The notes under the pieces are model-generated. The model saw only the letters and a program-made list of their open reading frames with translations. It was not told the DNA's origin and searched no databases. A stretch of 11,624 bases of DNA from Candidatus Calditenuaceae archaeon (lineage in GTDB: Archaea; Thermoproteota; Nitrososphaeria_A; Caldarchaeales; Calditenuaceae): positions 1 through 11,624 of the forward strand of contig JANXEU010000029.1 of assembly GCA_025058055.1 (NCBI GenBank), in the 5' to 3' direction. Of the stretch, positions 1 through 11,624 are shown one piece after another. Each line of letters starts with the position of its first letter. The stretch's first letter is position 1. The position numbers and the translations under genes were made by a program.

Positions 1-1133
1 TTCCTGAGGCCACCCATCTGGTCGATGTCGTTGGTAGCGACCGCGTGAATCACGGAGCCCGCCGCGAGGAAGAGGAGGGCCTTGAAGGCCGAGTGGCTGA
101 GCAGGTGGTAGACCCCGGAGGCCCAGCCCGCGACCGAGCCGGCACCGATCGCCGCGAACATCAAGGCCAGCTGGCTGATCGTGGAGTACGCCACCACCCT
201 CTTGATGTCGTTCATGACGAGGCCCATGGTGGCCGCGAAGAGAGAGGTGAAGCTGCCGATGGTGATCATCAGCGCGTACCAGTCGGAGAGCTGTGCTGTG
301 CCGAAGTGCTCGACCGGGACAAGCGTCCAGGAGTATCTGGCCATCAAGTAGACTCCGGCCTTGACCATCGTTGCGGCGTGGATGAGCGCGCTGACAGGAG
401 TGGGGCCCTCCATGGCGTCCGGGAGCCAGACGTGGAGCGGGAACTGGGCGGACTTGCCCATCGCTCCACCGAAGGCCAGCAGCATCACCAGCGACATGAA
501 GCCGGGGTCGATCCCCTGACCGTGGACCTTATGGGCGATCTCCGAGACGCTGAGCGACCCGAACCTCGAGAAGAGGAGCGCTATTGAGGCGAAGAGCATG
601 ACGTCGCCTATCCTCGTGGTGACGAAGGCCTTGATCCCGGCGAGCCTCGCCTCCTTCCTGTGGTAGTAGAAGCTGATGAGCCCGTAGCTGCAGATGCCCA
701 CTATCTCCCAGCCTATGTAGAGGCCTGCGAGGCTGTCCGAGACGACCAGCAGCGTCATGCCGCCGATGAAGAAGGTCATGAAGAACCAGTACCTCGGGAG
801 GCCCTCCTCATGGGACATGTAACCCACGGAGTAGATCAGGATGAGAAGGCCGATGCCGTTGGCGATGGCTGCCATGAGGACCGAGAGCGGGTCCAGGAGA
901 ACGCCGAACTTCAGCTCCGTGCCGCCGGGGAGGGCGAGCCACGAGGCCTCGACGACCTGAGAGGGCTTGCCGTAGACGTCCGGGATCATCGAGACGGCGA
1001 AGGCCGTTGAGAGCGCAACCAGCGAGATCGAGTAGAGCTCACCGACGCGCTTTCCGATTTTGAAGAACGCGGGCACCAGCGTCGACCCGAGGATCGGTAT
1101 CAGCCAGACCAGCCAGGGCGCGTAGGGCAGCAT
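1..1133 (-). CDS. Complex I antiporter-like subunit, NuoL/MrpA family (NADH-quinone oxidoreductase chain L or Mrp antiporter subunit A). N-terminal ~377 aa only; the C-terminus lies beyond the left window edge.
   Basis: I translated the minus strand by hand from the ATG at 1133-1131, which is preceded by an in-frame TGA at 1160-1158. It reads MLPYAPWLVWLIPILGSTLVPAFF...LDPLSVLMAAIANGIGLLILIYSVGYM...GWEIVGICSYGLISFYYHRKEA...TTRIGDV...GKSAQFPLHVWLPDAMEGPTPVSALIHAATMVKAGVYL...AYSTISQLALMF...HLLSHSAFKALLFLAAGSVIH and stays open to base 3. These are hallmark motifs of the proton-conducting NuoL/ND5/MrpA family, including the chain-5 N-terminal segment. The + strand ORFs 45..587 and 660..1010 are R/E/D/G/H-rich antisense shadows. 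Confidence 0.9.
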   Translation of the reverse strand, partial: MLPYAPWLVWLIPILGSTLVPAFFKIGKRVGELYSISLVALSTAFAVSMIPDVYGKPSQVVEASWLALPGGTELKFGVLLDPLSVLMAAIANGIGLLILIYSVGYMSHEEGLPRYWFFMTFFIGGMTLLVVSDSLAGLYIGWEIVGICSYGLISFYYHRKEARLAGIKAFVTTRIGDVMLFASIALLFSRFGSLSVSEIAHKVHGQGIDPGFMSLVMLLAFGGAMGKSAQFPLHVWLPDAMEGPTPVSALIHAATMVKAGVYLMARYSWTLVPVEHFGTAQLSDWYALMITIGSFTSLFAATMGLVMNDIKRVVAYSTISQLALMFAAIGAGSVAGWASGVYHLLSHSAFKALLFLAAGSVIHAVATNDIDQMGGLR

Positions 1134-1308
1134 GATCTTCGGATAGCCCGCTATACCTCAGAATAAAGGCTTGACCCTGCAGAACGGACCGGGCCGACCA
1201 GGGCGTGGAGGACGGGCCTCTCGGAGCTATCTCAGTCCCTTGAGTCGTTACGGCGATGGCCGGAGCCCGGAGGAGGGACGGGGGAGCGATCGGGAGGCGC
1301 GCGGGTAG

Positions 1309-1848
1309 ATGAGCGGGACTCGAGTGCTCGGGCAAAGGGTGATGTATACTGCGGGTCGATGTAAGGTCGTGAGGCGGCTGGTCTTGGTGGGGTTGATAGT
1401 GGCCCTCGCGGTGATGCTGATGGGCACGTTGATGGCCGTGAACCTCGACAGGGGCGGGGCGGGCGGAGGGCCCTGCGCAGACAGACTGGGGTTCGACGAG
1501 AGGAACGGCGTGACGCTGACCCTGAGGCCGGCCTTCGTCGGAAGCGGTGTCAGGTCGATCGAGTACACGATCGTGAACAGGAGGAGCGAGCCGGTCTACT
1601 TCGGCGCGCCGTACGACGTCCAGAAGTTCACCGACGGCAAATGGGTCACGGTTGAATGGATGAAGGACCGTGTCTGGATAATGATACTCTACTCGCTGAA
1701 CTCCGGGGGGTCGATGACCCTGACGGTCGAGCTACCGGAAGACATCGAGCCGGGATGCTATCGACTCGTCAAGGAGGTAATGCTGCGGGACACCACGGAA
1801 TCCGAGTGGAAAGTAGAGCTGGTTGCGACGTTCGTCGTGGAGCGGTGA
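1309..1848 (+). CDS. Hypothetical membrane-anchored or secreted protein with a single N-terminal hydrophobic helix and a beta-rich, possibly Ig-like, C-terminal domain
   Basis: The ORF track gives a 179-aa ORF. A hydrophobic anchor (RRLVLVGLIVALAVMLMGTLMAV) is followed by a G-rich linker and alternating beta-strand-like patterns (IEYTIVNRRSEPVYFGAPYDVQKFTDGKWVTVEW, MTLTVELPEDIEPGCYRLVKEV). These resemble Ig-like/proteinase-inhibitor-like folds, but that is only an impression. The start is ambiguous: in-frame ATG 1309, ATG 1342 or GTG 1369, the last giving MRRLVLVG. Confidence 0.6.
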   Translation: MSGTRVLGQRVMYTAGRCKVVRRLVLVGLIVALAVMLMGTLMAVNLDRGGAGGGPCADRLGFDERNGVTLTLRPAFVGSGVRSIEYTIVNRRSEPVYFGAPYDVQKFTDGKWVTVEWMKDRVWIMILYSLNSGGSMTLTVELPEDIEPGCYRLVKEVMLRDTTESEWKVELVATFVVER

Positions 1849-1868
1849 TCCTCAGCGGCCGATGAGAG

Positions 1869-1876
1869 TTAAATTA
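1869..1876 (+). promoter_or_regulatory. Candidate archaeal TATA box for the tRNA gene
   Basis: TTAAATTA is centred about 27 nt upstream of tRNA position 1 (base 1900). This matches the usual archaeal TATA-to-start distance. Confidence 0.5.
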
Positions 1877-1926
1877 GGGGCGCGTGAGAGTAACGACAGG
1901 CCGGGGTACCTCAGCTGGCTAGAGGC

Positions 1927-1943
1927 GTTTGCCGGACAAAGGG
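1927..1943 (+). other. tRNA intron 1 (~17 nt) at a non-canonical position between the D stem and anticodon stem; boundaries are approximate to within 1 nt
   Basis: There are 18 nt between the D-stem 3' strand (GAGG, ending at 1925) and the anticodon-stem 5' strand (starting at 1944), where only position 26 is expected. The insert can form a TTTG/CAAA hairpin (1928-1931 with 1937-1940). Confidence 0.6.
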
Positions 1944-1955
1944 CCGCGCTCATAA

Positions 1956-1975
1956 TCCCTCGGTGAGGGATGAAT
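1956..1975 (+). other. tRNA intron 2 (~20 nt) at or next to the canonical 37/38 position in the anticodon loop; boundaries are approximate to within 1-2 nt
   Basis: 20 extra nt separate the 7-nt anticodon loop from the 3' anticodon-stem strand. The intron pairs ATGA (1970-1973) with TCAT (1950-1953), covering the anticodon, and forms an internal CCCT/AGGG hairpin. This layout is bulge-helix-bulge-like. Confidence 0.65.
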
Positions 1976-2187
1976 CGCGGTTGTCGTGGGTTCGAATCCC
2001 ACCCCCGGCAGGTTCAACAAGAACCCTCATGAGATTCTGAACTAGGTGTCATCAACGAAACTTGGCCCTCGTGTTGGAGGAACAGAGGGACGCGGAGGGT
2101 TACGAAATGCATTCTGCACGAAAAACAGTAACTCAATTAACAGAATATCTACAGACTACATCAAAAATCAAAAACGAAGAGGAGAGG

Positions 2188-2649
2188 TTATGTCACGTTG
2201 GTGCAGGTCAACGTTGCAGACGTCGGTGCCCATGGGGCGGTTCCAGTTCCCAGAGTGGCCAGCACCGCTGTCGGGTAGGACTTGCCGCCTGCGCTGTAGA
2301 ACGCAAGCTCAACCGTAACTCCGGGAGGTGGGGACTGTACGTCTACGTCACACTGAACTGTCTGACCGACGGGTACCGCGACCGGGGCCGCCGGAGTGCC
2401 TATGGCCCTTCCCTGCACGACGACCTGAATTATCGAGGTGTCCGCAGATCCGGTGTTCCTCAACCTCACCCTGAACGTGTCTTGGTCGGTCATAACAGCC
2501 GAGACGATCTCCAGCTTCTCGAACCTCGTGAAGACTCCGACCAGACCGGAGGCCCAGAACGCCACCGCGATCGCGATCACGATAGCGACCGCAACCAGTA
2601 TAACCGTCGCGACTACCGGGCTTATCGCCTTCTTCTCCCGTCTTCTCAT
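2188..2649 (-). CDS. Archaeal type IV pilin-like protein with a class III signal peptide (DUF361 / archaeal flagellin N-terminal-like domain)
   Basis: The N-terminus is MRRREKKA|ISPVVATVILVAVAIVIAIAVAFWASG. A basic leader ends in K-A, followed by a ~21-residue hydrophobic helix, the typical prepilin-peptidase (PibD/FlaK-type) substrate. The C-terminal part is beta-rich with two Cys (QCDVDV and LTCTNVT). It is a paralog of the 2809..3240 gene. Confidence 0.85.
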   Translation of the reverse strand: MRRREKKAISPVVATVILVAVAIVIAIAVAFWASGLVGVFTRFEKLEIVSAVMTDQDTFRVRLRNTGSADTSIIQVVVQGRAIGTPAAPVAVPVGQTVQCDVDVQSPPPGVTVELAFYSAGGKSYPTAVLATLGTGTAPWAPTSATLTCTNVT

Positions 2650-2662
2650 TTCACCCAGATTG

Positions 2663-2690
2663 ATCTTTATCCAGTAGATAAATATTTCAT
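2663..2690 (-). promoter_or_regulatory. Candidate promoter (TATA-like tract) for the 2188..2649 pilin gene
   Basis: The minus strand reads AAATATTTATCTACTGGATAAAGAT, lying 14-40 nt upstream of the ATG at 2649 within an AT-rich 159-bp intergenic spacer. Confidence 0.4.
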
Positions 2691-2808
2691 GAATAAGAGA
2701 CTGATGATCATGAGAACCAACTGATTAACAAAATGAACCTAAAAGGCTCTAACTAATATTAATAGTTATGCTGTATTTTGCATGTTAGACACGAGATTGA
2801 TTAACAGT

Positions 2809-3240
2809 TTAGACACAGTGAACGGATTCTACGTTAGTCGCGAACGGCCCCGAGAAGCCACCGTGATTGGCCATGAACACGGTCGGGAACCTCTTCCCGG
2901 TGGAGGTGATCACCACCAGCTCGATCGAGGCACCGACTGGCAGGTCTCCGTTGACACGAACCACACAGGTCCTCACAGCCCCGGTCCCCACATCGATACC
3001 ACTCGGCAGCCGATAGTACACTCTGCCCATCAGCTCGACCGCCGAGATCGAGGAGACCGCCACCCCCGGGTTCTTAACGGTGAACTCGATCGTCCTGCCG
3101 TCGACGGTCCTTGCCCCGATGATTTCCAGCCTCTCGAAGGGCGTGACCTGCGCGACGAACCCCGAGGCCCAGAACGCGACCGCTACAGCGGCTACCACCG
3201 TGACGGCAATAAGGATCGCCGCCTCCACCGAGACCTCCAT
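2809..3240 (-). CDS. Pilin-like paralog with a conserved hydrophobic N-terminal helix but no recognisable prepilin leader
   Basis: MEVSVEAAILIAVTVVAAVAVAFWASGFVAQVTPFERLEIIGA aligns without gaps to the predicted mature N-terminus of the neighbouring pilin (ISPVVATVILVAVAIVIAIAVAFWASGLVGVFTRFEKLEIVSA). Both proteins have a central and a near-C-terminal Cys. Confidence 0.8.
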   Translation of the reverse strand: MEVSVEAAILIAVTVVAAVAVAFWASGFVAQVTPFERLEIIGARTVDGRTIEFTVKNPGVAVSSISAVELMGRVYYRLPSGIDVGTGAVRTCVVRVNGDLPVGASIELVVITSTGKRFPTVFMANHGGFSGPFATNVESVHCV

Positions 3241-3264
3241 CCAGCACAGTGAACGAGCCTCCAG

Positions 3265-3274
3265 TATATTATTA
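3265..3274 (-). promoter_or_regulatory. Candidate TATA box for the 2809..3240 pilin-like gene, implying a leaderless or near-leaderless mRNA
   Basis: The minus strand reads TAATAATATA, centred about 29 nt upstream of the ATG at 3240. Confidence 0.5.
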
Positions 3275-3348
3275 GAGCGCTCTTGTCCGCCCCGCTCGAC
3301 ACGTGGACCCGAAAAGCTTTTACCGAGTCTAGACGTAAATGAAACAGC

Positions 3349-5127
3349 ATGGGATTCTCCGACTCCTTCGCGTCCTTCTCCTTCGCCTACTTCAGGAGCT
3401 TGGGCAGTAAGATCGTCCTCCGCTTAGCTCCAGGCATACCGGACAAGCTGGACTCCACCGGGAAGCGCCTCCACCCGGAGGTCTTCGCGTCGATGGTGAT
3501 GAGCGCCTTCTTCATCTCGCTGGCGGTCACCGGGGCCGTCATGGCCGCTGTGTACCTGATAACGCTAAACTGGCTCTACGTGATCCTTCTCGTGCCCATA
3601 CCGGTGCTGGTGCTGCTCTTCGGCATAGCCTATCCGTACCTCTCCGCCGCCAACACCTCGTCCATGTACGAGAGCGAGGTCCCCTACGCAGCCGCCTATC
3701 TGGCCGTCATGTCCACGGGTGGCATACCGCCGTTCAAGAGCCTCGAACGCCTCGCTGAGACCGACCTCCTCCCGAGCATCGCCAAATCGGCACAGGTGGC
3801 CCAGATACACGTCAAGATCGCGGGCGAAGACCCCGTCACGGCAATCGAGAAGATGGCCAAGGGCATACCTTCGAAGGAGTACAGAGACCTGCTGCTGGGA
3901 TACGCGTCAACCCTCAGGAGCGGCGGCGACGTCGTCCACTACCTGATCCGGAAGACCGAGCAAATCTTCACGGGGAGGATGGGGACGATGAGGATCGTCG
4001 GCGAGAGGATGGGCATGCTGATGGAGGGGTTCGCGGCGATCACTATGATGCTCTCGCTGGTCCTCTTCACGATCTACATCATCTCGAGGGCCCTTCCGTC
4101 CGAGTTCATGGTGATGCCCCAGGAGCAGTTCGTCATCATCTCCTACGTGATCCTCCCCACGCTCTCCATCGTCTTCGTCTACATCGCCGACATCAGCCAG
4201 CCCAAGTACCCCCAGACCGACCCGAGACCCATGAAGGTCTTCTACCTCACGATGCCGGCCGGACTGGCGTTCCTAGTCCTCTTCGTCGTCCCCTTCTTCT
4301 TACCCGAACTGAGGACGATACAGCCCTTCAATTTCACCTCCTCCCTCATGGTCGGGTTAAGGTCCGCGATGGGCCTCGAACCCGGATACGAGTCGTCTCT
4401 TGCGCTCTGCCTCACCTTCATCGCCCTCTTCCTGCCAGGCGCGGTAGCCTTCAGGACCTACAGCTCCGAGAACTTCTCCGTCATCCACGGGATGACCCTC
4501 TTCCTCAGAGACCTCACAGAGGTCAGGAAGACCGGGCTGAGCCCAGAGCAGTGCATCATAGACCTCTCCCAGAACTCCTACGGCGCCTTCTCCAAGAGGC
4601 TGAGGGAGATCGCGAGACAGATAAGCTGGGGGATACCGCTGAAGAAGATCTATCAGGACTTCACCAAGAGGACCTACGGCTGGCTGGAGAAGGCAGGTAT
4701 ATTCATTCTAATTGACGCGATCGACGTCGGTGGTGGCGCTCCCGAGACCCTCGAGGTCCTCACGAGCTTCTCCGAGGATCTGGAGGAGATAGAGAGGCAG
4801 AAGCGCGCAACGCTCAGACCGCTCATGATGATACCATACCTGACGGCCATTCTACTGGTAGTGGTCGTGGTCATACTGATAGTCTTCATGAGGGAGCTCC
4901 TGAAGGTCGCCAGAATGCCCATCTCGACCGCCGAGTTCATCGGTTCCTTCCTCCCGCCGGTGATCTTCATCGCTGCGATCAGCGGGCTCGTCGCCGGTAA
5001 GATCTCCACCTCTAGAGTCGCAGGGGGCTTCGTTCACGCCACCATACTATCGGTCATCTCGCTGCTGGCGATCTGGATATCCGGAGTGATGGCTGTACAG
5101 TTGTTCCAGCTACCCTCCGTGGGTTGA
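3349..5127 (+). CDS. FlaJ/ArlJ/TadC-type polytopic membrane platform protein of an archaeal type IV pilus-like system, with two T2SS-F-like repeats
   Basis: The 592-aa ORF has two repeats, each a cytoplasmic helical domain followed by TM helices. Repeat 1 is VPYAAAYLAVMSTGGIPPFKSLERLAE...AGEDPVTAIEKMAKGIPSKEYRDLLLGYASTLRSGGDVVHYL. Repeat 2 is FLRDLTEVRKTGLSPEQCIIDLSQ...ISWGIPLKKIYQDF...IDAIDVGGGAPETLEVLTSFSEDL. There are many hydrophobic segments, and the size and layout are typical of FlaJ/UpsF/AapF-type proteins. Confidence 0.85.
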   Translation: MGFSDSFASFSFAYFRSLGSKIVLRLAPGIPDKLDSTGKRLHPEVFASMVMSAFFISLAVTGAVMAAVYLITLNWLYVILLVPIPVLVLLFGIAYPYLSAANTSSMYESEVPYAAAYLAVMSTGGIPPFKSLERLAETDLLPSIAKSAQVAQIHVKIAGEDPVTAIEKMAKGIPSKEYRDLLLGYASTLRSGGDVVHYLIRKTEQIFTGRMGTMRIVGERMGMLMEGFAAITMMLSLVLFTIYIISRALPSEFMVMPQEQFVIISYVILPTLSIVFVYIADISQPKYPQTDPRPMKVFYLTMPAGLAFLVLFVVPFFLPELRTIQPFNFTSSLMVGLRSAMGLEPGYESSLALCLTFIALFLPGAVAFRTYSSENFSVIHGMTLFLRDLTEVRKTGLSPEQCIIDLSQNSYGAFSKRLREIARQISWGIPLKKIYQDFTKRTYGWLEKAGIFILIDAIDVGGGAPETLEVLTSFSEDLEEIERQKRATLRPLMMIPYLTAILLVVVVVILIVFMRELLKVARMPISTAEFIGSFLPPVIFIAAISGLVAGKISTSRVAGGFVHATILSVISLLAIWISGVMAVQLFQLPSVG

Positions 5128-5132
5128 TTAGA

Positions 5133-6740
5133 TCACTCAGACTTCGAAAGCTCACTTACGAGCTCGGAGACCACGGACGTTAAAACCTGTCTGAGAGCGA
5201 CATTACTGGGAGATGAAACATCGATGAGTTTGATGCCGAAGCTCTTTGCGATGGTCTCAACGGTCGACGGCCACTTCGCTACCGCCAGCACGTGAACCTC
5301 CTTGATCTCCTTCTCCAGCCTGAGCCAGACCGCCTCCGAGAGGACCTCGCCCGCGCTCCTGTAGGGGGAACCGAACGAGAGGAAGGCTGCCACTGGACTC
5401 TCGTCCCGCTTCACTAGGAGCTCGACGATGTGTGGTGTTCCCGCGGAGTCCAGAAGCACAGAAGGCGACTCGACCCTCAGCCCTGCCTCTTGCAGGAGAT
5501 TGTACAGCATCAGAAGCGGCCTCTTCTCCTTCTCCAGATACTCTTTGTACTCCGGCTTGAGCTTGAAGTTGTAGAAACGCTGATACTTGCCGTACTGCGC
5601 GTCGTAACGGTTGCCGCAGGCTTTGCAGGTGAACTCGGTTCTAGGTATCTCGGAGATCGACCCACACGAGTTACACCTGAAGAGGGTCGAGTAGAGCAAG
5701 AAGGTTACGCCCTGCGGCCTGCCTGCAGCACCTCCCTCTCCTGAACCGTATGACTGGACGTCCTCGCCTCTTATCCTGCACTGCGGACACTCATAGTAGG
5801 CGAGCTTCGTGAACGACAGTAAGGGGCCCAAATATCCGCAATTTGAGCACTGAATTACCTCTTGGCGCTCTATGTCTTCGGACTTGCAATACGCACAGAC
5901 GAGCTCGTAAGACGCATCGATACCGTTGCACCTAGGACACGACAACGTTTTGAAGGCGAAATCTCCTACCAGCACTCCCTTTCTCCAGAGCGAGGTTAAC
6001 AGCTCCAATATCGACCTCGATTCCAGGCCCAACGCCTCCTCGGCCTCTTGGTATCTGCCTCCGAGTGGTGCCCTGTCGTCTCTCAATGGTTTCAGGACTT
6101 TACCGTACTCTGCTAACCACTCAACTAACGTAAGCTCCGCGTGGGAAAGAGTGATGACCGTGGGGGCAGCGTCTACGAACTCCTGCACCTTGGTGAGAAC
6201 TTGTGGCTGATCGCTCGTCGACACCAATTGAACGGTCGATTCCGAGGGCGCCTCCTCCTGAGGCTTTGGTGAAGAGGACTGGGCCGTCCCAGCGGGCGAT
6301 GGAATCTGAACACGCGCTTCTTCACGTTGCTCGGTTTGCGCGACCGTCTTCTCAGGCTTCTTCTCGAGACCCGACACCAACGCGTACGCTATCGAAACAC
6401 TGAGACCTATAGCTGGAAGAGGGACAGAGAACACGACGTGTCTTCCAAAAGCAGCCACACCTTCTGGAGTGATAAGGGACACAACGAACGTCCCGATGAC
6501 CCATCCCACCAACACGCCGAGTAAGGCTAGGACGTTTCCAGCAATGCGACGCAAGAACAGCATGAGAACGCCGAGTATCACACCACCGAGTACCGAGGGC
6601 AAGAAAACGAAGAACTGTGAAAGGGGAGAGAGTAAAAGGAGCGCGACAAGGGTCACGACAGATCCCAGAGCAATGTTAACCAGTAAGGGTAATAATTTGC
6701 CCCTATATGCGGATCCCGTCATCATTTCTCCGCCATTCAC
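5133..6740 (-). CDS. Membrane-anchored multi-Zn-ribbon protein: ~4-5 N-terminal TM helices, a low-complexity linker, a helical domain, six CxxC pairs and a C-terminal alpha/beta domain. Function unknown.
   Basis: The ORF is 535 aa. TM segments lie within residues ~15-125 and a P/Q/E/S-rich linker spans ~130-180. Cys pairs are at residues 268/271, 282/285, 298/301, 318/321, 356/359 and 372/375 (nt 5616-5939). The track start at 6740 is GTG. ATG codons at 6725 and 6722 (MMTGSAYRGK...) are plausible alternatives, since a TATA-like AAAATATATG (6751-6760, minus strand) lies ~30 nt upstream of them. Confidence 0.75.
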   Translation of the reverse strand: MNGGEMMTGSAYRGKLLPLLVNIALGSVVTLVALLLLSPLSQFFVFLPSVLGGVILGVLMLFLRRIAGNVLALLGVLVGWVIGTFVVSLITPEGVAAFGRHVVFSVPLPAIGLSVSIAYALVSGLEKKPEKTVAQTEQREEARVQIPSPAGTAQSSSPKPQEEAPSESTVQLVSTSDQPQVLTKVQEFVDAAPTVITLSHAELTLVEWLAEYGKVLKPLRDDRAPLGGRYQEAEEALGLESRSILELLTSLWRKGVLVGDFAFKTLSCPRCNGIDASYELVCAYCKSEDIERQEVIQCSNCGYLGPLLSFTKLAYYECPQCRIRGEDVQSYGSGEGGAAGRPQGVTFLLYSTLFRCNSCGSISEIPRTEFTCKACGNRYDAQYGKYQRFYNFKLKPEYKEYLEKEKRPLLMLYNLLQEAGLRVESPSVLLDSAGTPHIVELLVKRDESPVAAFLSFGSPYRSAGEVLSEAVWLRLEKEIKEVHVLAVAKWPSTVETIAKSFGIKLIDVSSPSNVALRQVLTSVVSELVSELSKSE

Positions 6741-7016
6741 TAGGCATCCCCATATATTTTTGTTTCTAAAATAACAACCACTTAAGATCGCTCCCAGCTT
6801 GCCTCACCCATGAAGGGCACAAATCTTCACCATGTGGCCCCTTGAATTCGGGTATTATGCTTTCGGATCAGCTCCGAAGTTATGCTAAAGGACGAACTAT
6901 CGACGTTTTCGTTAGGAGTTTAATTTTTAATTTATATATTGGACAGTTGAGATTCACCGAGCGCTTGGAAAAGACAAAGTTTATTGAATTAACGTTGCGA
7001 AGAGGCTGTTCGGGCT

Positions 7017-8207
7017 TTGAGCGGATCGAGGAGCCACGTCAACGTAGCGATCTTCATGGTCAGCATAGGGTTAGCCAACGCCCTCTCGACCGGCTTGCAA
7101 CCGCTTCTCCCATACTTCATCAGGGGCTTGGGGGCCACCGTTGAGCAGGTAGGCTTCGCCCTGGCCCTCTCAAGAGTCTCGTACCTAATTCTCTCGCCGA
7201 TAGGTGGGGTCCTAGCTGACATGTGGGGGAGGAAGACGGTGCTTGTGCTGTCACCGCTGATCACGGGCTTCGCCTACCTGCTGCTGGCTGAGTCGACCGA
7301 CTGGCTGTCGTCGGTGGTACCGCTGATGCTGATCATGCTTCCTGTAGCGCTAACCGGACCGGCGGTCTTCGCGTACATCGCGGACCTCTCTTCTGCAGAG
7401 AGATACGGTCGATTCTACGGCCTGTACTTCGGCGTCGTCAACGCGGCCACCGTCATAGGGTACCTGGCTGCCGGACCACTTGTCGAGTTCAGCGGTTATC
7501 GGGCAGTCTTTCAAATCACCGCACTGACCCTCCTCCTAAGTGCAGCCCTGCGGATCGCACTGAAGGAAACCCGTACCCGAAAGGACAGCACTACGATGGA
7601 CCTCAGCCTCCTGCTGAGGAGCTCTGTAAAAGCGGCATCCAAGGGGCCGCTGCCGGCCCTCATCACGCTCAGGAGCCTCAACTTAGCGCAGATATGGGTT
7701 CTGACCGGAATCGTCATACCGTTAGTCGCAAGGGACGTCATACAGCTGAGCGAATCAGACCTGACCTTGATGTTCGCGTTCGAATCGATCGTCTTCGCGT
7801 CTCTTTCCACGCTCGGTGGAAGGTTGGTAGAGGGTGAGAGGTGGTTCCTGTACATCTGGTTGGAGATAGTTATGCGCTCTCTGAGTGTATTGGTTCTCAT
7901 AACTATGAGCACGTGGTTCGGGGTTCTGCTCGCGCTGCTCTTGGGATCAGGTCTAGCCATCTTTTTCCAGCCATTCGTCGACTCAAGAACCTCCGCTCAC
8001 GTCGACAGGTCCATAAGGGGAGGGGTCTGGGGAATCCAGCAGCTGCTGTACACCGCATCTACAATGGTAGCCACGTACGGTGCTAGCCTCGTGTGGGAGA
8101 CTCTTGGCTATCAGATCGCTATTTGGTTCACCGTGCTGCCGGTAATGTTCATGATTCCGATAGTTCATCAGATTCGTAAACAGACCGTTTTGGCAAACGC
8201 TCGGTGA
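7017..8207 (+). CDS. Major facilitator superfamily (MFS) transporter; substrate unknown
   Basis: The 396-aa hydrophobic ORF carries MFS motif A in the TM2-TM3 loop (GGVLADMWGRKTVL) and multiple TM segments throughout. The start is TTG at 7017, the first start codon after the in-frame TAA at 6990-6992. ATG 7056 is an alternative. Confidence 0.8.
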   Translation: MSGSRSHVNVAIFMVSIGLANALSTGLQPLLPYFIRGLGATVEQVGFALALSRVSYLILSPIGGVLADMWGRKTVLVLSPLITGFAYLLLAESTDWLSSVVPLMLIMLPVALTGPAVFAYIADLSSAERYGRFYGLYFGVVNAATVIGYLAAGPLVEFSGYRAVFQITALTLLLSAALRIALKETRTRKDSTTMDLSLLLRSSVKAASKGPLPALITLRSLNLAQIWVLTGIVIPLVARDVIQLSESDLTLMFAFESIVFASLSTLGGRLVEGERWFLYIWLEIVMRSLSVLVLITMSTWFGVLLALLLGSGLAIFFQPFVDSRTSAHVDRSIRGGVWGIQQLLYTASTMVATYGASLVWETLGYQIAIWFTVLPVMFMIPIVHQIRKQTVLANAR

Positions 8208-8281
8208 TCTTTTCCAAATTGCCATCAAAATACACTGTCCAGCACCTAAAGTGAGAAATCGTAGAGCAGAACGACCGAGAG

Positions 8282-8292
8282 CTTAATCATTT
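8282..8292 (+). promoter_or_regulatory. Candidate TATA-like element for the 8313..9185 gene
   Basis: CTTAATCATTT is centred about 26 nt upstream of ATG 8313. The match to a TATA box is weak. Confidence 0.3.
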
Positions 8293-8312
8293 GGATATCT
8301 GTGTAGTGATAG

Positions 8313-9185
8313 ATGGCCACCGAGGCTATAAGGTCGAATGTGTTAGCCGCCTTGGTCGAGCTCGCTTCTTCGGGAACGACTCTCATCAAGCCTATGTTCG
8401 ATCCACAGGCACCGAACGGGGTGTCCTACCCGGAGGCTGATGAAGCGTTCAACACCAAAGGTGCCGAGACCGAGGAGCTCCTCGAGAACCTTCACAGGGC
8501 CGGCATGCTGAAGAGGACACTTTTAGACGTCATAAGGGCGTGTCCGGTATGTGGACACGTCGACGTTGAGGCAAGGGAAGCGTGTCCGAGTTGCAAGTCC
8601 CCGAATTTGACAGTTGGGGACCGAAAGGTGTCTTGCATGAGTTGTGGAACGGTATCTCAATCTCCCGAGTTCGTGCTTCACTGTAGCAAATGCGGGAATC
8701 TGTTCCCTCAAGAAGCAGCTAAGTTACGGCCGCTATTCGCTTACCTGATCGCCAAATCGACGCTAACGGAACAAGAAAGGACCGCGAAGTCTAACGTGAT
8801 AGAGATAACTGGAAGGCTCGTATTGCAAACCCCTCTCATGGAGGAGATGAGGAGGGTCATGGAGAGCATGACTGAGAGAATAGAGAAGGCAGTCAACAGG
8901 CTCGTCGAAACTTCAGGTCGGTTGGAGGCCGGATCGCAGGCGACTGGGCAGGGCAGGGCCTTTACGAGGACCACCCTGTCACCCGCGCTTAGGAAGACGC
9001 TGGAGGCCCTCTCTCAGGTGGGAAGTGCCACGGCCGAAGAGGTCTCATCTCTGACCGGAAGGACGAGGCCCCTCGAGAGCGTCTATCTCAACCAGCTGGC
9101 CTATATGGGATACGCTACAAAGGAGAGGAAAGGACAGAGGATCTACTTCAGGTCCTTGAACCAGACGATGTTGGAGATGAAATGA
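8313..9185 (+). CDS. Soluble double Zn-ribbon protein with a coiled-coil segment and a C-terminal winged helix-turn-helix; putative transcription regulator and paralog of the Zn-ribbon module in 5133..6740
   Basis: The ORF is 290 aa, with Cys pairs at residues 77/80, 91/94, 108/111 and 124/127 (nt 8541-8693). A heptad-like segment reads LMEEMRRVMESMTERIEKAVNRLVE. The C-terminal LRKTLEALSQVGSATAEEVSSLTGRTRPLESVYLNQLAYMGYATKERKGQRIYFRS has a MarR/ArsR-like wHTH pattern. Confidence 0.7.
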   Translation: MATEAIRSNVLAALVELASSGTTLIKPMFDPQAPNGVSYPEADEAFNTKGAETEELLENLHRAGMLKRTLLDVIRACPVCGHVDVEAREACPSCKSPNLTVGDRKVSCMSCGTVSQSPEFVLHCSKCGNLFPQEAAKLRPLFAYLIAKSTLTEQERTAKSNVIEITGRLVLQTPLMEEMRRVMESMTERIEKAVNRLVETSGRLEAGSQATGQGRAFTRTTLSPALRKTLEALSQVGSATAEEVSSLTGRTRPLESVYLNQLAYMGYATKERKGQRIYFRSLNQTMLEMK

Positions 9186-9347
9186 ACCGAGCGCCCTTGA
9201 ATACGGATTGGCAACTCGTTTCCGTCTCTTACCATGAGGGAGTTGTATGATCTGCTACGGAGCGAAGCGGCTGACACCTTATGGGATGCAACAGTTACCT
9301 GAAACTCGAGACCAATCGGGAACGCGGGGGTTTAGCTGTCCGTTGGG

Positions 9348-9363
9348 TATACTATTTTTATAT
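9348..9363 (+). promoter_or_regulatory. Strong TATA-like box, probably the promoter of the large pilin-like operon
   Basis: TATACTATTTTTATAT lies 31-46 nt upstream of ATG 9394. It sits inside the N-terminal extension that the ORF track proposes (start 9247). Confidence 0.55.
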
Positions 9364-9393
9364 GACGCAGTGGCGGCTAAGATTAGATCCTTG

Positions 9394-10614
9394 ATGAGAA
9401 TGATGGTTCGTCAACCTCGTGACGCGATTAAAGGTCGTATGGGAATCTCGCCAGCCGTTGCGACCGCGATTCTGGCTGGCGTCACCCTTTTCCTAGGTAT
9501 TTTACTCATCACGCTCAGTGCTGGCTGGTTCAGCGTTAACGCGACCGATCTGAACCTACAGGCCAACCGCGAGATACAGTTGATCAAGACTTCAGGGTTA
9601 CTGGTCTTCGAAAGCGTTAGGTACGCTGCAAACTCAGCTAGTCGTAGTGCAACAGTCAGGAACGTCTCCGAAGTCGAGTTATGCGTGACCAGAGTTGAGT
9701 TGATCCGCGAAAACGGTATTCTGGCTGGGGTATGGCCCACGTCCCCTGAGGGGTGGGCGAGGTGTGATCCGACTGGACTGAATCCTATTATGTCTAGGCA
9801 GAGCCTCAATCTCAGCGCAACGGATGGTACCTTACCGCCTTGCATCGACTGCAGCCCTGGAGAGCGCATCAGGCTGAGAGTTTGGTACATCGCGAGGTCA
9901 CTTTACGATCAAAACAACCCTGTGAACTCTGCGGACGAGATGCGCTTCACTGAGACGCTGATCGTCTTCCCAGGAACGAGGAGAGTCGGAATGTGCACTG
10001 CAAATTTGGGTAGCAGGTATGTCGTCCTGAGCTCCATCGACCCGCTCACGAACTACAACAACGGTCGAATAATGGACAGCCCCAACGACAAGCTTTACCT
10101 CGGTTTCTCGCATTCGACACCAGCAACAGACAACCCCGTGCACTTCGGAGTTAAACTAGTGGGACGCGATAACGTCGTAGTAGTAATAAGCAGTAACCTG
10201 AGGATAGATGTGCCATACGAGCAGGCCATCGCTGGAGCAGCTGGTATATCAACGCCCTTCTCAGCGTACGCCAGCGGTTACTATCAACCGGTTCCATGGG
10301 AGTTTTACTTCGACAGAACCGATGACGGAGTGTTGCACGTCTCAGACATCCGGCTGATAACACAGTACCGCTCCTACCTGAGCGAGTTTCCGATTCTGAC
10401 GAGCGTTCAGCTTACACTGGGCAAATTATACGGTGTAGCTGTGCACGACAGGCCCGTTAATGTGTATTTAACTGATTGTAATGGCGTTCGTCTAGCGACT
10501 CTGTCCATCACGATCTCAGCGGGAAGCGAGGAGGAGTGGATCACCGTGTTCATAGACGTCCCTGAGATAATTGAGGTTACCGAGCTAGCGAAAGTGGAGG
10601 TTTACCTTAGATGA
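9394..10614 (+). CDS. Large (~406 aa) pilin-like protein with a class III signal peptide; candidate minor pilin or adhesin
   Basis: In the frame of ORF 9247..10614, the segment MRMMVRQPRDAIKGRMG|ISPAVATAILAGVTLFLGILLITL matches the leader/cleavage/hydrophobic-helix pattern of the small pilin (KKA|ISPVVATVIL). I moved the start to ATG 9394 because of the TATA box at 9348-9363 and the implausible 49-aa extension. ATG 9400 and 9403 are also possible. The remainder is beta-rich and carries several Cys. Confidence 0.75.
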   Translation: MRMMVRQPRDAIKGRMGISPAVATAILAGVTLFLGILLITLSAGWFSVNATDLNLQANREIQLIKTSGLLVFESVRYAANSASRSATVRNVSEVELCVTRVELIRENGILAGVWPTSPEGWARCDPTGLNPIMSRQSLNLSATDGTLPPCIDCSPGERIRLRVWYIARSLYDQNNPVNSADEMRFTETLIVFPGTRRVGMCTANLGSRYVVLSSIDPLTNYNNGRIMDSPNDKLYLGFSHSTPATDNPVHFGVKLVGRDNVVVVISSNLRIDVPYEQAIAGAAGISTPFSAYASGYYQPVPWEFYFDRTDDGVLHVSDIRLITQYRSYLSEFPILTSVQLTLGKLYGVAVHDRPVNVYLTDCNGVRLATLSITISAGSEEEWITVFIDVPEIIEVTELAKVEVYLR

Positions 10615-11624
10615 CCCGGAAGAGAACGCGCGGGGACTCAGACGTGGTCTCAACGGCCATCGCCCTCTCGTTGGTCGTTGCAATAGGGATAAGCTTGCTC
10701 ATCCTCCTCAACTCCAGAGCTATGATCAGCCGACAGGAAGCGGTCGAGGACCTGAACAGAGATCAACTTTTGCTGAGATCATTGCTCGCTGCGGATTACG
10801 CGCTGTTCCCCGATCCGAGACTGGGGGAGGGCTCGGGAATTGGTATGATCAAGTTTAGAAACGTCGGAGACGTGCCAATAACGATATTCAGGTTAATCGT
10901 GTACAGAAACGGATCTGTCTCTTCCGATTCAGGAATCAATCCTTCAAGGTTCATAACGCTCGGGGTAAGGTCTGAGGAAGAGAGAACGGAGGAGATTAGG
11001 TTCACCTGTCGTGGTTGCAGGGCCGGTGACCCGATACTCGTGACGGTTCACTACGTTCCCACCGCACTGATAAACCCGGCAGACCCTACCACCATCGATC
11101 CGCTCTACAGGACGATGCTCTACAAGGTTGCCGAGTTCAAGCCGATCGTACCTCAGGCGCTAGCTTCCCCCATCTGCCCGCTGCCGGATAACTGGATCTT
11201 CATCGAGTTCGTGGATCCTGTGGAGGAGATGATGAGACAGCAGGGAGGTCCTATTCAGGCTGTAATTACTAACAGGCTGAGGTTCAGGGTGACTATGGCC
11301 AGCAACCCCAATTTGGACACAACGATCAACGTCATAGTGACCGACGGCACTAATCAGATGACCGGATCGGTTCGAATATCTCCGCCCTACCCGAGGCAGT
11401 ACGAGGTCGAGCTACGGGGCCCGGTTCTCAGGTATCCCGTGTCGGTTCAGTTCACGTCTGATACTGTAGACATACGTCCGGAAACGTGGAGGTTCAACAC
11501 CGACAGCGAAGTCCTTATACCGGATTACATGCGCCTCAGCGTAGACAACCTCAACAACTTAGTTGTAGGTCTGTTGGCGTCAGCTTACGCGACCGAGGAC
11601 ACGTCTGCGACGGTGCGCATGGAC
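10611..11624 (+). CDS. Second large pilin-like protein with a class III signal-like N-terminus; partial (338 codons), continuing beyond the right window edge
   Basis: It is absent from the ORF track because there is no stop in the window. I translated it by hand from ATG 10611: MTRKRTRG|DSDVVSTAIALSLVVAIGISLLILLNSRAMISRQEAVEDL...; the frame is open to 11624. The ATG overlaps the upstream TGA (ATGA at 10611-10614), and GGAGG lies at 10596-10600. A basic leader with R-G followed by a hydrophobic helix fits the class III signal pattern. Confidence 0.75.
   Translation, partial: MTRKRTRGDSDVVSTAIALSLVVAIGISLLILLNSRAMISRQEAVEDLNRDQLLLRSLLAADYALFPDPRLGEGSGIGMIKFRNVGDVPITIFRLIVYRNGSVSSDSGINPSRFITLGVRSEEERTEEIRFTCRGCRAGDPILVTVHYVPTALINPADPTTIDPLYRTMLYKVAEFKPIVPQALASPICPLPDNWIFIEFVDPVEEMMRQQGGPIQAVITNRLRFRVTMASNPNLDTTINVIVTDGTNQMTGSVRISPPYPRQYEVELRGPVLRYPVSVQFTSDTVDIRPETWRFNTDSEVLIPDYMRLSVDNLNNLVVGLLASAYATEDTSATVRMD

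What the first reader, a model, noticed from the sequence alone, without database searches (positions are those of the whole stretch)
2188..11624. Atypically organised archaeal type IV pilus-like locus: platform protein, four pilin-like proteins and two Zn-ribbon paralogs, with no ATPase or peptidase in 9.4 kb
The sequence shows one FlaJ/TadC-like platform gene, two small paralogous pilin-like genes and two large (over 330 aa) pilin-like genes in an overlapping operon. It also shows two proteins sharing a multi-CxxC module and an embedded MFS transporter. Characterised archaeal type IV pilus-like systems (archaellum, Ups, Aap, Epd) pair the platform protein with a FlaI/PilB-family ATPase. Here the genes are arranged in four or more separate transcription units with divergent and convergent junctions. 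The accessory genes (Zn-ribbon proteins, very large pilins) do not match any characterised system I recognise. This may be an uncharacterised surface filament or adhesion system with its own regulators.
Basis: partly seen in the sequence, partly recalled or inferred. Interest (0 to 1): 0.75.

Follow-up and report, generated by a model that had tools for sequence, protein, structure and literature searches.

The report
Aigarchaeal type IV pilus locus, cut short
This is an ordinary, probably complete type IV pilus gene cluster of a hot-spring archaeon (family Calditenuaceae); the "missing" motor ATPase lies about 2.8 kb beyond the window's right edge in near-identical genomes, and the zinc-ribbon genes belong to a family already recorded next to archaeal pilus genes.

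Summary
The window is collinear (84-90% nt identity) with Calditenuaceae MAG contigs. In those contigs the second large pilin gene, which the window end cuts, is followed by a Thr-rich pilin-like gene, a 441-aa prepilin-like gene and a 594-aa FlaI/VirB11-type ATPase. That ATPase starts 2,783 bp past the window end. A second lineage (Ca. Calditenuis fumarioli) has the same pilin-to-ATPase order in one operon. Lack of a prepilin peptidase in the locus is normal: in Ca. Caldiarchaeum subterraneum it is encoded elsewhere. The two Zn-ribbon paralogs are TackOD1 (PF18551 = arCOG06883) proteins. Makarova 2016 and Galperin 2018 already recorded this family inside thaumarchaeal and aigarchaeal pilus loci. 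The small pilin resembles solved Sulfolobales adhesive pilins. The core gene set is conserved across Caldarchaeales but heavily rearranged. Two details appear new. The membrane-anchored TackOD1 protein ends in a restriction-endonuclease-like fold (AF2 pLDDT 93). The MFS gene and the TackOD1-wHTH gene form a conserved pair. Verdict: a new member of a known kind, of low to moderate interest.

The parts
2188..2649 (-). pilA: 153-aa prepilin, the candidate major pilin. N-terminus MRRREKKA|ISPVVATVILVAV...
   Evidence: NCBIfam TIGR02537 archaellin/type IV pilin N-terminal domain scores 32.3 bits (cut-off 20). Best equivalog model is UpsA, E 5e-9 but below cut-off. Pfam Pilin_N E 0.0022. PDB sequence hits to solved archaeal T4P pilins: 8tib/8tif E 1.7e-7, 8fjs E 2.2e-5, 6nav E 1.4e-4, 6w8x E 4e-3. 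One N-terminal hydrophobic helix. Orthologues at 48-91% identity sit next to the platform gene in L001, L005, L008, L010, L013 and L018.
2809..3240 (-). pilB: 143-aa paralogous pilin-like protein with a very short, uncharged leader (MEVSVEA|AILIAV...)
   Evidence: 34-37% identical to pilA, E about 1e-15. PDB hit 8fk7 E 1.6e-3. Orthologues in L001 (65%), L008 (85%) and L010 (41%). No Pfam or NCBIfam pilin hit of its own.
3349..5127 (+). Platform protein (FlaJ/TadC/T2SSF family), 592 aa, polytopic membrane protein, divergent from pilB
   Evidence: Pfam T2SSF E 9.9e-21 with two stretches. Best NCBIfam models are UpsF (92.5 bits), BasF (89.5) and ArlJ (52), all far below their cut-offs. About 9-10 hydrophobic segments. 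1,800 homologues found; the nearest are in Caldarchaeales/Nitrososphaerota MAGs. 97% identical in L008, 90% in L001, 82% in L010.
5133..6740 (-). TackTM: 535-aa membrane-anchored TackOD1 protein. About 4 N-terminal TM helices, a low-complexity linker, a winged-helix-like segment plus three Zn ribbons (6 CxxC), and a C-terminal restriction-endonuclease-like fold. Convergent with the platform gene, 5 bp apart. The true start is probably the ATG at 6725 or 6722.
   Evidence: Pfam TackOD1 E 4e-24, 85.6 bits (cut-off 32). TM segments and CxxC positions. AF2 model of residues 191-535 with a 150-sequence MSA: pLDDT 93, pTM 0.79. Foldseek against PDB: AF1548 1y88 E 8e-5, R2 RLE domain, Can2/Cdn1/Card1, EcoT38I, MspJI. 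11 of 66 family members hit Pfam Mrr_cat, best E 4e-13. Orthologue adjacent to the platform gene in L001, L008/L015 and L010, in an operon with the ATPase in L017, and about 9 kb away in L005.
7017..8207 (+). MFS transporter (396-aa ORF; the orthologue in L015 is called at 383 aa), first gene of a conserved MFS-TackHTH pair
   Evidence: Pfam MFS_1 E 1.1e-28, 100.6 bits (cut-off 33.4). Weak similarity to drug/H+ antiporter models only. An MFS gene lies directly upstream of the TackHTH orthologue in all 11 copies that hold the pair (window, L004, L008, L015, L013, L020-L025).
8313..9185 (+). TackHTH: 290-aa soluble TackOD1 protein (winged-helix-like segment plus two Zn ribbons, 4 CxxC), a helical linker, and a probable C-terminal winged HTH. 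Candidate transcription regulator.
   Evidence: Pfam TackOD1 E 2.8e-20, 73.1 bits (cut-off 32). TrmB wHTH E 0.0026 at residues 230-278. NCBIfam ArsR/SmtB HTH E 0.0016 and SdpR E 0.0046 at 226-288. PDB AspA E 0.07 at 232-282. The AF2 N-terminal 150 residues have pLDDT of 95 or more, but the C-terminal 70 residues only about 50. Its TackOD1 module is 30-32% identical to that of TackTM, E about 1e-10. An exact copy is present in Logan run SRR15826899.
9247..10614 (+). Large prepilin-like protein ('big413' family; maximal ORF 455 aa, probable start at 9394 giving 406 aa). Candidate minor pilin or adhesin. N-terminus ...KGRMG|ISPAVATAILAGV...
   Evidence: The N-terminus matches the UpsA model positions 2-51, E 7.6e-4. 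One N-terminal hydrophobic helix. Orthologues: 85% in L015 (413 aa), 43% in L010 (412 aa), 43% in L005 (400 aa), 30% in L002. TATA-like box about 35 nt upstream of the ATG at 9394. No Pfam family and no PDB match.
10611..11624 (+). Second large prepilin-like protein ('big604' family): the first 338 of about 604 aa, cut by the window end. Its start overlaps the previous stop (ATGA). N-terminus MTRKRTRG|DSDVVSTAIALSLVV...
   Evidence: 93% identical to the 604-aa protein of L015, 46-50% to the 605-aa protein of L005, 44% to L010, 32-34% to L002. Distant paralogue of the big413 family (E 1e-8 to 1e-13). N-terminal hydrophobic helix, plus a C-terminal hydrophobic segment in the full-length orthologue. 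No Pfam, NCBIfam or PDB match.

Best explanation
The window holds the left two-thirds of a complete type IV pilus (T4P) locus of a Calditenuaceae archaeon (Caldarchaeales, formerly Aigarchaeota). The locus is of the TACK 'clade 4' kind that also contains the Sulfolobales Aap, Ups and bindosome systems.

What is shown:
- A FlaJ/TadC-type platform gene.
- Two small pilins, one of them related to solved adhesive-pilus pilins.
- Two large prepilin-like proteins.
- Two TackOD1 (arCOG06883) Zn-ribbon proteins.
- An MFS gene.
- In collinear genomes, the cut gene is followed by a Thr-rich pilin-like gene, a 441-aa prepilin-like gene and a FlaI/VirB11-type ATPase about 2.8 kb beyond the window end.

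What is inferred from established T4P biology:
- A prepilin peptidase (PibD/FlaK type, encoded elsewhere) removes the short leaders.
- The hexameric ATPase docks on the platform protein and drives insertion of pilA (possibly also pilB) from the membrane into a filament.
- The large prepilin-like proteins act as minor pilins or tip adhesins that prime assembly and mediate attachment.
- The filament serves adhesion and cell-cell contact in hot-spring biofilms or streamers.

The two TackOD1 proteins are most likely regulatory. TackHTH (TackOD1 plus a probable wHTH) would act as a DNA-binding transcription factor. TackTM would be a membrane-tethered partner whose cytoplasmic Zn-ribbon and endonuclease-like domains contact nucleic acid or the ATPase/platform complex. 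The scattered transcription units reflect the frequent rearrangement of this locus within Caldarchaeales, not a different kind of machine.
For: Gene identities.

Organism and relatives.

ATPase beyond the window edge:
- L015 (130-kb contig) has the same gene order as the window and continues 604 aa > [Thr-rich region] > 441 aa > T2SSE ATPase 594 aa. The ATPase scores Pfam T2SSE E 5e-32 and NCBIfam FlaI model 337.6 bits.
- The window aligns to L015 at 84-87% nt identity, ending at L015 position 7218. The ATPase starts at 10001.
- L008 (platform 97% identical, collinear with the whole window at 86-90% nt identity) and L016 from the same MAG overlap by 141 bp on L015.
- The independent lineage L010 (575-kb contig) has one operon: pilB-pilA-412-605-193-466-T2SSE.

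Conserved core set (platform, ATPase, pilA, big413, big604, p441 and usually p386 and TackTM) in L002, L005, L010, L015 and L017.

Pilin homology to solved T4P pilins.

Literature:
- TackOD1/arCOG06883 in T4P loci, and the peptidase encoded elsewhere in C. subterraneum.
- Calditenuis pilus genes highly transcribed in situ.

The predicted topology places the TackTM soluble part in the cytoplasm (positive-inside residues flanking 4 TM segments, read from the sequence).
Against: - The ATPase is not in the window itself. Its presence in this genome is inferred from relatives at 84-90% nt identity, and the source contig could not be found.
- No prepilin peptidase was located for this lineage.
- No filament has been observed, and the major/minor pilin roles are assigned by analogy.
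- All equivalog models (Ups, bindosome, archaellum) score far below their cut-offs, so the system is not an orthologue of any characterised pilus.
- The roles of the TackOD1 proteins are unproven. The wHTH of TackHTH rests on sub-threshold profile hits and a low-confidence model.
- TackTM differs from its family at the conserved positions of the endonuclease-like domain.
- The MFS gene has no known link to pili.
Confidence: 0.85

Rival explanations
1. One reading: a novel, ATPase-less or trans-acting surface-filament system. Platform, pilins and Zn-ribbon proteins would work without a locus-encoded ATPase, forming a new system type.
For: No T2SSE gene lies within window 1-11624. The platform gene is followed by TackTM at the position where 67-70% identical relatives carry the ATPase. 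Makarova 2016 notes that ATPase/TadC pairs can serve different pilin sets (abstract).
Against: Collinear genomes carry the ATPase 2.8 kb past the window end, in the same orientation as the large pilin genes. L010 places it in the same operon as the pilins. Every related locus with enough flank has an ATPase within 10 kb of the platform gene.
Confidence: 0.04
2. Partly fortuitous juxtaposition: the MFS-TackHTH pair is a self-contained transporter-plus-regulator cassette, as in many efflux pump and repressor pairs. It merely lies in or near the pilus locus and has no pilus function.
For: The pair moves as a unit. It lies between TackTM and the large pilins in the window, L008 and L015. In L013 and L020-L023 it lies after a CBS/HTH gene pair, 4-5 kb from the ATPase. 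It is absent within 10 kb of the platform gene in L010, L005, L002 and L017. The MFS protein resembles drug/H+ antiporters.
Against: In all 7 loci with enough flank (window, L008, L015, L013, L020-L023) the pair lies within about 7 kb of T4P genes, even at 46-52% protein identity. TackHTH shares its sensor-like TackOD1 module with the T4P-linked TackTM and with arCOG06883 proteins of other T4P loci.
Confidence: 0.3
3. The locus encodes another T4P-derived machine: an archaellum (motility) or a bindosome-like sugar-binding-protein assembly system.
For: The platform and ATPase give their best NCBIfam hits to UpsF/BasF and to FlaI/BasE models.
Against: All scores are far below cut-off: ArlJ 52 against 550, BasF 89.5 against 1300, FlaI 337.6 against 550, BasE 226 against 1000. 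No archaellin, ArlH, ArlCDE or ArlF/G genes and no substrate-binding proteins occur in the window or in the L015 or L010 flanks. C. subterraneum carries a separate canonical archaellum operon.
Confidence: 0.04

Closest known systems
Archaeal 'clade 4' T4P loci carrying an arCOG06883 (TackOD1) Zn-ribbon gene, e.g. the Ca. Caldiarchaeum subterraneum operon FlaI-arCOG06883-TadC with a divergent pilin, and Ca. Nitrosopumilus AR2 (Makarova, Koonin, Albers 2016, PMC4858521, Table S4; Galperin et al. 2018, PMC5847659)
   Same: FlaI-type ATPase, TadC/FlaJ platform, small FlaG/FlaF/PilA-type pilin and a TackOD1 Zn-ribbon protein in one neighbourhood. The prepilin peptidase is encoded elsewhere. Same phylum-level group (TACK)..
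   Different: The platform is larger here (592 aa against 461 aa). There are two TackOD1 genes: one fused to a 4-TM anchor, one to a probable wHTH. There are several large (400-600 aa) prepilin-like proteins. The ATPase is about 9 kb from the platform rather than adjacent. arCOG membership of the large proteins could not be tested because no arCOG profiles were available.
Sulfolobales adhesive pili (Aap) and related solved crenarchaeal T4P (PDB 8tib/8tif of Saccharolobus islandicus, PMC11178852; 6nav; 6w8x)
   Same: pilA153 aligns over about 95 residues with these major pilins (E 1.7e-7 to 4e-3). Small pilins of about 130-150 aa with a class III leader. Probable adhesion role.
   Different: No orthology of the machinery: all equivalog models are below cut-off. 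Sulfolobales loci lack TackOD1 proteins and the large pilin-like set. Pilus structure and glycosylation are unknown here.
Ups pili of Sulfolobales (UpsA/B, UpsE, UpsF, UpsX)
   Same: The best-scoring NCBIfam equivalog models for pilA and the platform are UpsA (E 5e-9) and UpsF (E 2.5e-26). Two tandem small pilins lie next to a platform gene.
   Different: Scores are 36 against 130 bits and 92.5 against 400 bits, so these are not Ups orthologues. No UpsX. No evidence of UV induction or DNA exchange.
Pilus system of Ca. Calditenuis aerorheumensis (Beam et al. 2016, PMC4681859)
   Same: Same family (Calditenuaceae). L011, from the 'JGI OTU-1' assembly, carries an 82% identical platform gene with a pilA next to it. 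The paper reports these pilus genes as highly transcribed and suggests cell-cell contact.
   Different: Only three genes (_01412-_01414) were named in that paper. The accessory genes, the TackOD1 proteins and the locus architecture were not described.

Membership tests
Archaeal type IV pilus (T4P/type IV filament) assembly system | Polytopic FlaJ/TadC/T2SSF-family platform protein | tested here: met
   Pfam T2SSF 74.4 bits (cut-off 25.2), two stretches; about 9-10 hydrophobic segments.
Archaeal type IV pilus (T4P/type IV filament) assembly system | FlaI/VirB11 (T2SSE) family assembly ATPase encoded with the platform | tested here: inconclusive
   Absent from the window. Present 2,783 bp beyond the position matching the window end in collinear L015 (= L008+L016), and in the pilin operon of L010. 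The source genome itself could not be retrieved.
Archaeal type IV pilus (T4P/type IV filament) assembly system | Substrates with a class III (prepilin) signal peptide followed by a hydrophobic helix | tested here: met
   pilA: TIGR02537 32.3 bits (cut-off 20) and homology to solved pilins. pilB, big413 and big604 carry [KRE][GA]|[IAD][SI]-type sites followed by a single N-terminal hydrophobic helix (read from the sequences).
Archaeal type IV pilus (T4P/type IV filament) assembly system | A24-family prepilin peptidase (PibD/FlaK) in the genome | not testable with these tools
   None in the window or in the 10-kb flanks of L015 or L010. In C. subterraneum it is a stand-alone gene elsewhere. A 41%-identical relative (L019) has Peptidase_A24 next to its ATPase.
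Ups pilus (Sulfolobales) | Orthologues of UpsA/B, UpsF, UpsE and UpsX (NCBIfam equivalog cut-offs) | tested here: not met
   UpsA 36.4 against 130 bits. UpsF 92.5 against 400 bits. No UpsX-like gene.
Archaellum | ArlJ and ArlI at equivalog level, plus archaellins, ArlH, ArlF/G and ArlC/D/E or ArlX | tested here: not met
   ArlJ models 52 bits or less against cut-offs of 400-570. The relatives' ATPase scores 337.6 against 550. No archaellin or ArlH in the window or flanks.
Bindosome assembly system (Bas) | BasF/BasE/BasABC at model cut-off, with linked substrate-binding proteins | tested here: not met
   BasF 89.5 against 1300, BasE 225.9 against 1000, BasC E 0.062.
TackOD1 (PF18551; arCOG06883 Zn-ribbon proteins) | Pfam gathering threshold and the conserved CxxC/HxxC array | tested here: met
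   85.6 and 73.1 bits against 32. 6 and 4 CxxC motifs. All 66 scanned family representatives hit PF18551. TackTM has CxxC where the family has HxxC, and TackHTH lacks the middle ribbon. Equivalence with arCOG06883 is taken from PMC5847659 and was not tested with arCOG profiles.
PD-(D/E)xK / Mrr-like restriction endonuclease fold (C-terminal domain of TackTM) | Fold similarity and catalytic D...(D/E)xK residues | tested here: inconclusive
   The fold is supported: AF2 pLDDT 93; Foldseek 1y88 E 8e-5, with R2 RLE, Can2, EcoT38I and MspJI among the top hits; 11 of 66 relatives hit Mrr_cat. A catalytic motif is not evident. The window protein has G431D, S433A, D440E and D476E relative to the family consensus, so activity is doubtful.
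Major facilitator superfamily | Pfam MFS_1 threshold, about 12 TM segments | tested here: met
   100.6 bits against 33.4. At least 8 separate hydrophobic segments in a crude hydropathy scan, fewer than the 12 expected.

The most novel reading that the evidence does not exclude
The TackOD1 proteins may form a pilus-dedicated control or DNA-handling module that has not been described.

TackTM is a 4-TM membrane protein whose cytoplasmic part combines a winged-helix-like segment, three Zn ribbons and a restriction-endonuclease-like fold. It sits beside the T4P platform or ATPase gene in six Caldarchaeales lineages.

Two readings are open:
(a) TackTM is a membrane-tethered nucleic-acid-binding regulator that works with, or sequesters, its soluble paralogue TackHTH. 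This would couple pilus assembly state to transcription, and the MFS gene would belong to the same regulon.
(b) TackTM is a DNA-binding or DNA-processing component that links this pilus to DNA uptake or exchange, by analogy with Ups-dependent DNA exchange.

The C-terminal endonuclease-like fold of the TackOD1/arCOG06883 family was not mentioned in the papers read here. Galperin et al. 2018 call the domain's function obscure.
Probability: 0.2. Interest if true: 0.55.

Novelty: new member of a known kind. Interest (0 to 1): 0.25.

Why it matters
As filed, an ATPase-less new filament system would have been notable, but it is an artefact of where the window ends. What remains is still useful.

- It documents a conserved yet highly rearranged T4P gene set in Caldarchaeales: platform, ATPase, two small pilins, four to five large prepilin-like proteins and a TackOD1 membrane protein. 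A close relative of this system is among the most highly transcribed gene sets of Calditenuis in hot-spring streamers (PMC4681859).
- It gives a first structural handle on the TackOD1/arCOG06883 family: Zn ribbons plus an Mrr-like fold, occurring in membrane-anchored, REC-fused and wHTH-fused forms. The function of this family is still called obscure.

Neither point opens a long-standing question, so the value lies in annotation and hypothesis building.

Tried and rejected
Searches that found nothing:
- Exact look-ups of window proteins, intended to find the source contig, failed for the platform protein and for TackTM in two forms. Only the 290-aa protein was on record, on a 1.8-kb Logan contig.
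- An exact 41-mer from the window's right end was absent from JGI metagenome contigs.
- A word-index homologue search with the partial big604 protein returned nothing, although BLAST finds 44-93% identical orthologues in fetched loci. That search was wasted.
- ARAGORN in default mode and Rfam at gathering thresholds found no RNA genes. A two-intron tRNA was recovered only by manual splicing.
- PDB sequence searches gave nothing for TackTM or big604, and only chance-level hits for big413.

- A Pfam scan of the 150-member alignment exceeded the size limit.

Weak results:
- The AF2 model of the TackHTH C-terminus is unreliable (pLDDT about 50), so the wHTH call rests on weak profile hits only.
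- No conserved palindromic operator was apparent in the MFS-TackHTH or TackTM/MFS intergenic regions on inspection.

Readings considered and rejected:
- Archaellum, bindosome or Ups membership, because model scores are far below cut-off.
- An integrated mobile element next to the tRNA gene: no integrase is present, and the same flanks (nuoL, Big_14) occur in L001 and L008.

Full report
**1. What is in the window**

ORF listing and three-frame translation of the ends give the following map.
- A partial NuoL-like antiporter subunit gene, 1 to about 1140 (-).
- A Big_14 Ig-like protein, 1309-1848 (+).
- Two small pilin-like genes, 2188-2649 (-) and 2809-3240 (-).
- A divergent 592-aa T2SSF/FlaJ-type platform gene, 3349-5127 (+).
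- A convergent 535-aa gene, 5133-6740 (-).
- An MFS gene, 7017-8207 (+).
- A 290-aa gene, 8313-9185 (+).
- Two large genes with a 4-bp overlap, 9247-10614 and 10611-11624 (+). The second runs off the right end.

Pfam and NCBIfam confirm T2SSF (E 9.9e-21), MFS_1 (E 1.1e-28) and the archaeal pilin N-terminal domain in pilA (TIGR02537, above cut-off). Both Cys-rich proteins are above threshold for TackOD1, PF18551 (85.6 and 73.1 bits, cut-off 32).

The four pilin-like proteins each have one N-terminal hydrophobic helix preceded by a short class III-type leader. No T2SSE gene or A24 peptidase gene lies in the window.

**2. Organism**

The platform protein's nearest homologues are from Caldarchaeales/Nitrososphaerota MAGs. 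A scan of GTDB species representatives found:
- a Ca. Calditenuaceae MAG contig (SKYB46, L008) with 97% protein identity;
- another hot-spring MAG (L009 = L001) at 90%;
- Ca. Calditenuis fumarioli (L010) at 82%.

L008 is collinear with the whole window at 86-90% nucleotide identity.

**3. The 'missing' ATPase**

I used the ATPase of L010 as a probe and found its 80%-identical relative (P0124) on two contigs.

L015 is a 130-kb contig with exactly the window's gene order, and it continues beyond it:
- platform > TackOD1 (-) > MFS > TackOD1-290 > 413 aa > 604 aa > [Thr-rich region] > 441 aa > T2SSE ATPase of 594 aa.

L016 comes from the same MAG as L008. It starts with the last 166 codons of the 604-aa gene and carries the same 441-aa and ATPase genes.

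L008 and L016 overlap by 141 bp when laid on L015 (99.8% identity). The window aligns to L015 at 84-87% identity and ends at L015 position 7218. The ATPase starts at 10001, which is 2,783 bp beyond the window edge.

The ATPase scores Pfam T2SSE E 5e-32. Its best NCBIfam model is FlaI (337.6 bits, below the 550 cut-off).

An independent lineage, L010 on a 575-kb contig, has one minus-strand operon: pilB-pilA-412-605-193(Thr-rich)-466-T2SSE598. The platform gene is divergent from it and a 542-aa TackOD1 membrane protein is convergent. Two lineages that bracket the window therefore place the ATPase immediately after the genes the window cuts off.

The absence of a peptidase gene is unremarkable. 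In Ca. Caldiarchaeum subterraneum the A24 peptidase is a stand-alone gene among housekeeping genes (Makarova 2016 Table S4).

**4. Neighbourhood conservation**

tblastn with 14 reference proteins against all fetched loci shows a conserved core across Caldarchaeales:
- the platform;
- the ATPase;
- pilA;
- the big413 family;
- the big604 family;
- a 441-466-aa prepilin-like family;
- usually a 386-396-aa prepilin-like family;
- a membrane-anchored TackOD1 protein.

The order is very plastic.
- In L017 (67% platform identity) the arrangement is platform > < ATPase < TackOD1.
- In L005-L007 (70%) the ATPase follows the platform gene and TackOD1 ends the pilin operon about 9 kb away.
- In L013/L014 the ATPase follows pilA.
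- In the window, L008/L015, L001 and L010, TackOD1 takes the place next to the platform gene and the ATPase ends the large-pilin operon.

More distant relatives (L018 at 55%, L019 at 41%) keep the platform, ATPase and pilins but have no TackOD1 gene within 10 kb. L019 has the peptidase adjacent.

This matches the 'modular evolution' and fast evolution of TACK T4P loci described by Makarova et al. 2016 (abstract).

**5. The Zn-ribbon proteins**

TackOD1 was defined by Galperin et al. 2018. [quoted passage not shown] Makarova et al. [quoted passage not shown] Their Table S4 shows an arCOG06883 gene between TadC and FlaI in C. subterraneum. So the accessory family is already on record.

Three details are added here.

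(i) Family size and forms. An exhaustive HMMER search with TackTM found 662 cluster representatives (E up to 1e-3). About a dozen of the closest carry 3-5 N-terminal TM helices. The typical member is a soluble protein of about 340 aa.

(ii) Family consensus. The consensus is a helical (winged-helix-like) segment, three ribbons (CPxC..CPxC, HxxC..CPxC, CxxC..CxxC) and a C-terminal domain with the pattern G.SG..H.FD..A...D. 11 of 66 members hit Pfam Mrr_cat (best E 4e-13) and 5 carry REC.

(iii) Structure.
- An AF2 model of window TackTM residues 191-535 is confident (pLDDT 93, pTM 0.79).
- Its C-terminal domain matches PD-(D/E)xK folds: AF1548 E 8e-5, the R2 endonuclease domain, Can2/Cdn1/Card1, EcoT38I and MspJI.
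- The window protein departs from the family at the conserved positions G431D, S433A, D440E and D476E, so nuclease activity is doubtful.
- The charged residues flanking the four TM segments put this domain in the cytoplasm (read from the sequence).

TackHTH keeps the N-terminal module with two ribbons (pLDDT of 95 or more). This is followed by long helices and a C-terminal region that three libraries weakly call a wHTH: TrmB E 0.0026, ArsR/SmtB E 0.0016 and AspA E 0.07. The model there is unreliable.

**6. The MFS-TackHTH pair**

A metagenome scan with a TackHTH alignment returned six loci. In all six an MFS gene lies directly upstream. In the four with enough flank, the T4P ATPase and a p386-family gene lie 4-7 kb away, together with a CBS-domain gene and an HTH gene that also follow the ATPase in L015.

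The pair is therefore a conserved unit kept near the pilus genes in at least two lineages that are only 46-52% identical. It is missing from the L010, L005, L002 and L017 loci. Whether it serves the pilus is open.

**7. The pilins**

pilA153 aligns with solved archaeal T4P major pilins:
- 8tib/8tif of Saccharolobus islandicus adhesive pili, E 1.7e-7;
- 8fjs, 6nav and 6w8x (searches give their papers).

pilB is a 34-37% identical paralogue with an unusually short acidic leader.

The large proteins have no Pfam, NCBIfam or PDB match beyond the pilin-like N-terminus. They are paralogous to each other, and big604 and p441 also have a C-terminal hydrophobic segment. By analogy with minor pilins and adhesins in other T4P loci (Makarova 2016) they are candidate minor pilins or tip adhesins.

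**8. How it most likely works**

Shown: the parts list and its conservation.

Inferred from established T4P biology:
- leader removal by an A24 peptidase encoded elsewhere;
- ATP-driven extraction of pilA from the membrane by the ATPase-platform complex;
- priming and adhesion by the large prepilin-like proteins;
- a role in attachment and cell-cell contact, consistent with very high in situ transcription of the pilus genes of Ca. Calditenuis aerorheumensis. L011, from that organism's assembly, carries an 82% identical platform gene next to a pilA.

TackHTH is most likely a transcription factor. TackTM is most likely a membrane-tethered regulatory or nucleic-acid-binding partner.

**9. Verdict**

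The interpretation as an atypical, ATPase-less and unrecognised system is not supported. The locus is a new member of the known TACK clade-4 T4P kind with an arCOG06883/TackOD1 accessory gene. It is not an orthologue of the Ups, Aap, bindosome or archaellum systems, since all equivalog scores are far below cut-off.

Residual novelty lies in the TackOD1 architectures and the endonuclease-like fold.

Interest 0.25. The most novel reading not excluded is a pilus-linked TackOD1 regulatory or DNA-handling module: probability about 0.2, interest 0.55 if true.

Noticed in passing
window 1900-2010 (+): A tRNA(CAU) gene with two introns lies between the Big_14 gene and pilA. ARAGORN in default mode and Rfam miss it. 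Removing 17 nt after position 26 and 20 nt within the anticodon loop gives a perfect 74-nt tRNA-Met cloverleaf. ARAGORN in intron mode instead calls a doubtful tRNA-His at the same place.
   Followed up: partly
window 9247-9393: The first 49 codons of the 455-aa ORF are probably not translated. Orthologues are 400-413 aa, and a TATA-like box (CTATTTTTATATG) lies about 35 nt upstream of the ATG at 9394.
   Followed up: partly
window 6602-6740 (-): The start of TackTM is uncertain: GTG at 6740, or ATG at 6725 or 6722. The public gene call for the identical protein (P0241, 489 aa) starts at residue 47 and would delete the first one or two TM helices, so it is probably mis-called.
   Followed up: no
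window 5133-6740 compared with 3349-5127: TackTM evolves much faster than its neighbour. It is 73-76% identical to L008, L015 and L001, where the platform protein is 90-97% identical.
   Followed up: no
window right end; L001 12724; L008 18762: Three independent assemblies break inside this locus: the window and L008 within the big604 gene, and L001/L009 within TackTM. This suggests strain-level heterogeneity or repeats here, for example the Thr-rich gene just downstream.
   Followed up: no
L015 8171-8551 (-); L005 2588-2896 (+); L016 655-1053 (-): The called 'poly-valine' ORFs of 102-132 aa look like antisense artefacts of a Thr-rich prepilin-like gene. The L010 4628-5209 product (193 aa) has a run of Thr residues and a class III-like N-terminus.
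   Followed up: partly
L019 6284-9331 (-); protein P0231: Some related T2SSE ATPases carry inteins: 1,015 aa with PF14890 Intein_splicing in L019, and a 902-aa partial protein with PF14528 and PF14890.
   Followed up: no
L002/L003 13807-16055; L005 13777-16037: In the 70% relatives the T4P ATPase gene is followed, on the same strand, by a 506-509-aa gene without a Pfam hit and an ABC-type ATPase gene. This is a conserved pair of unknown relation to the pilus.
   Followed up: no
L015 11799-13932; L013 6149-8257; L020-L023: A CBS-domain protein (about 290 aa) and a 364-379-aa protein with two weak HTH hits are conserved beside the T4P ATPase and next to the MFS-TackHTH pair. They may be further regulators of the locus.
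   Followed up: no
window 1-2000 compared with 2000-11624: G+C drops from 60-64% in the nuoL/Big_14 part to 46-60% across the pilus locus. It is lowest (45.6%) in the divergent TackTM/MFS intergenic region, 6501-7000.
   Followed up: no
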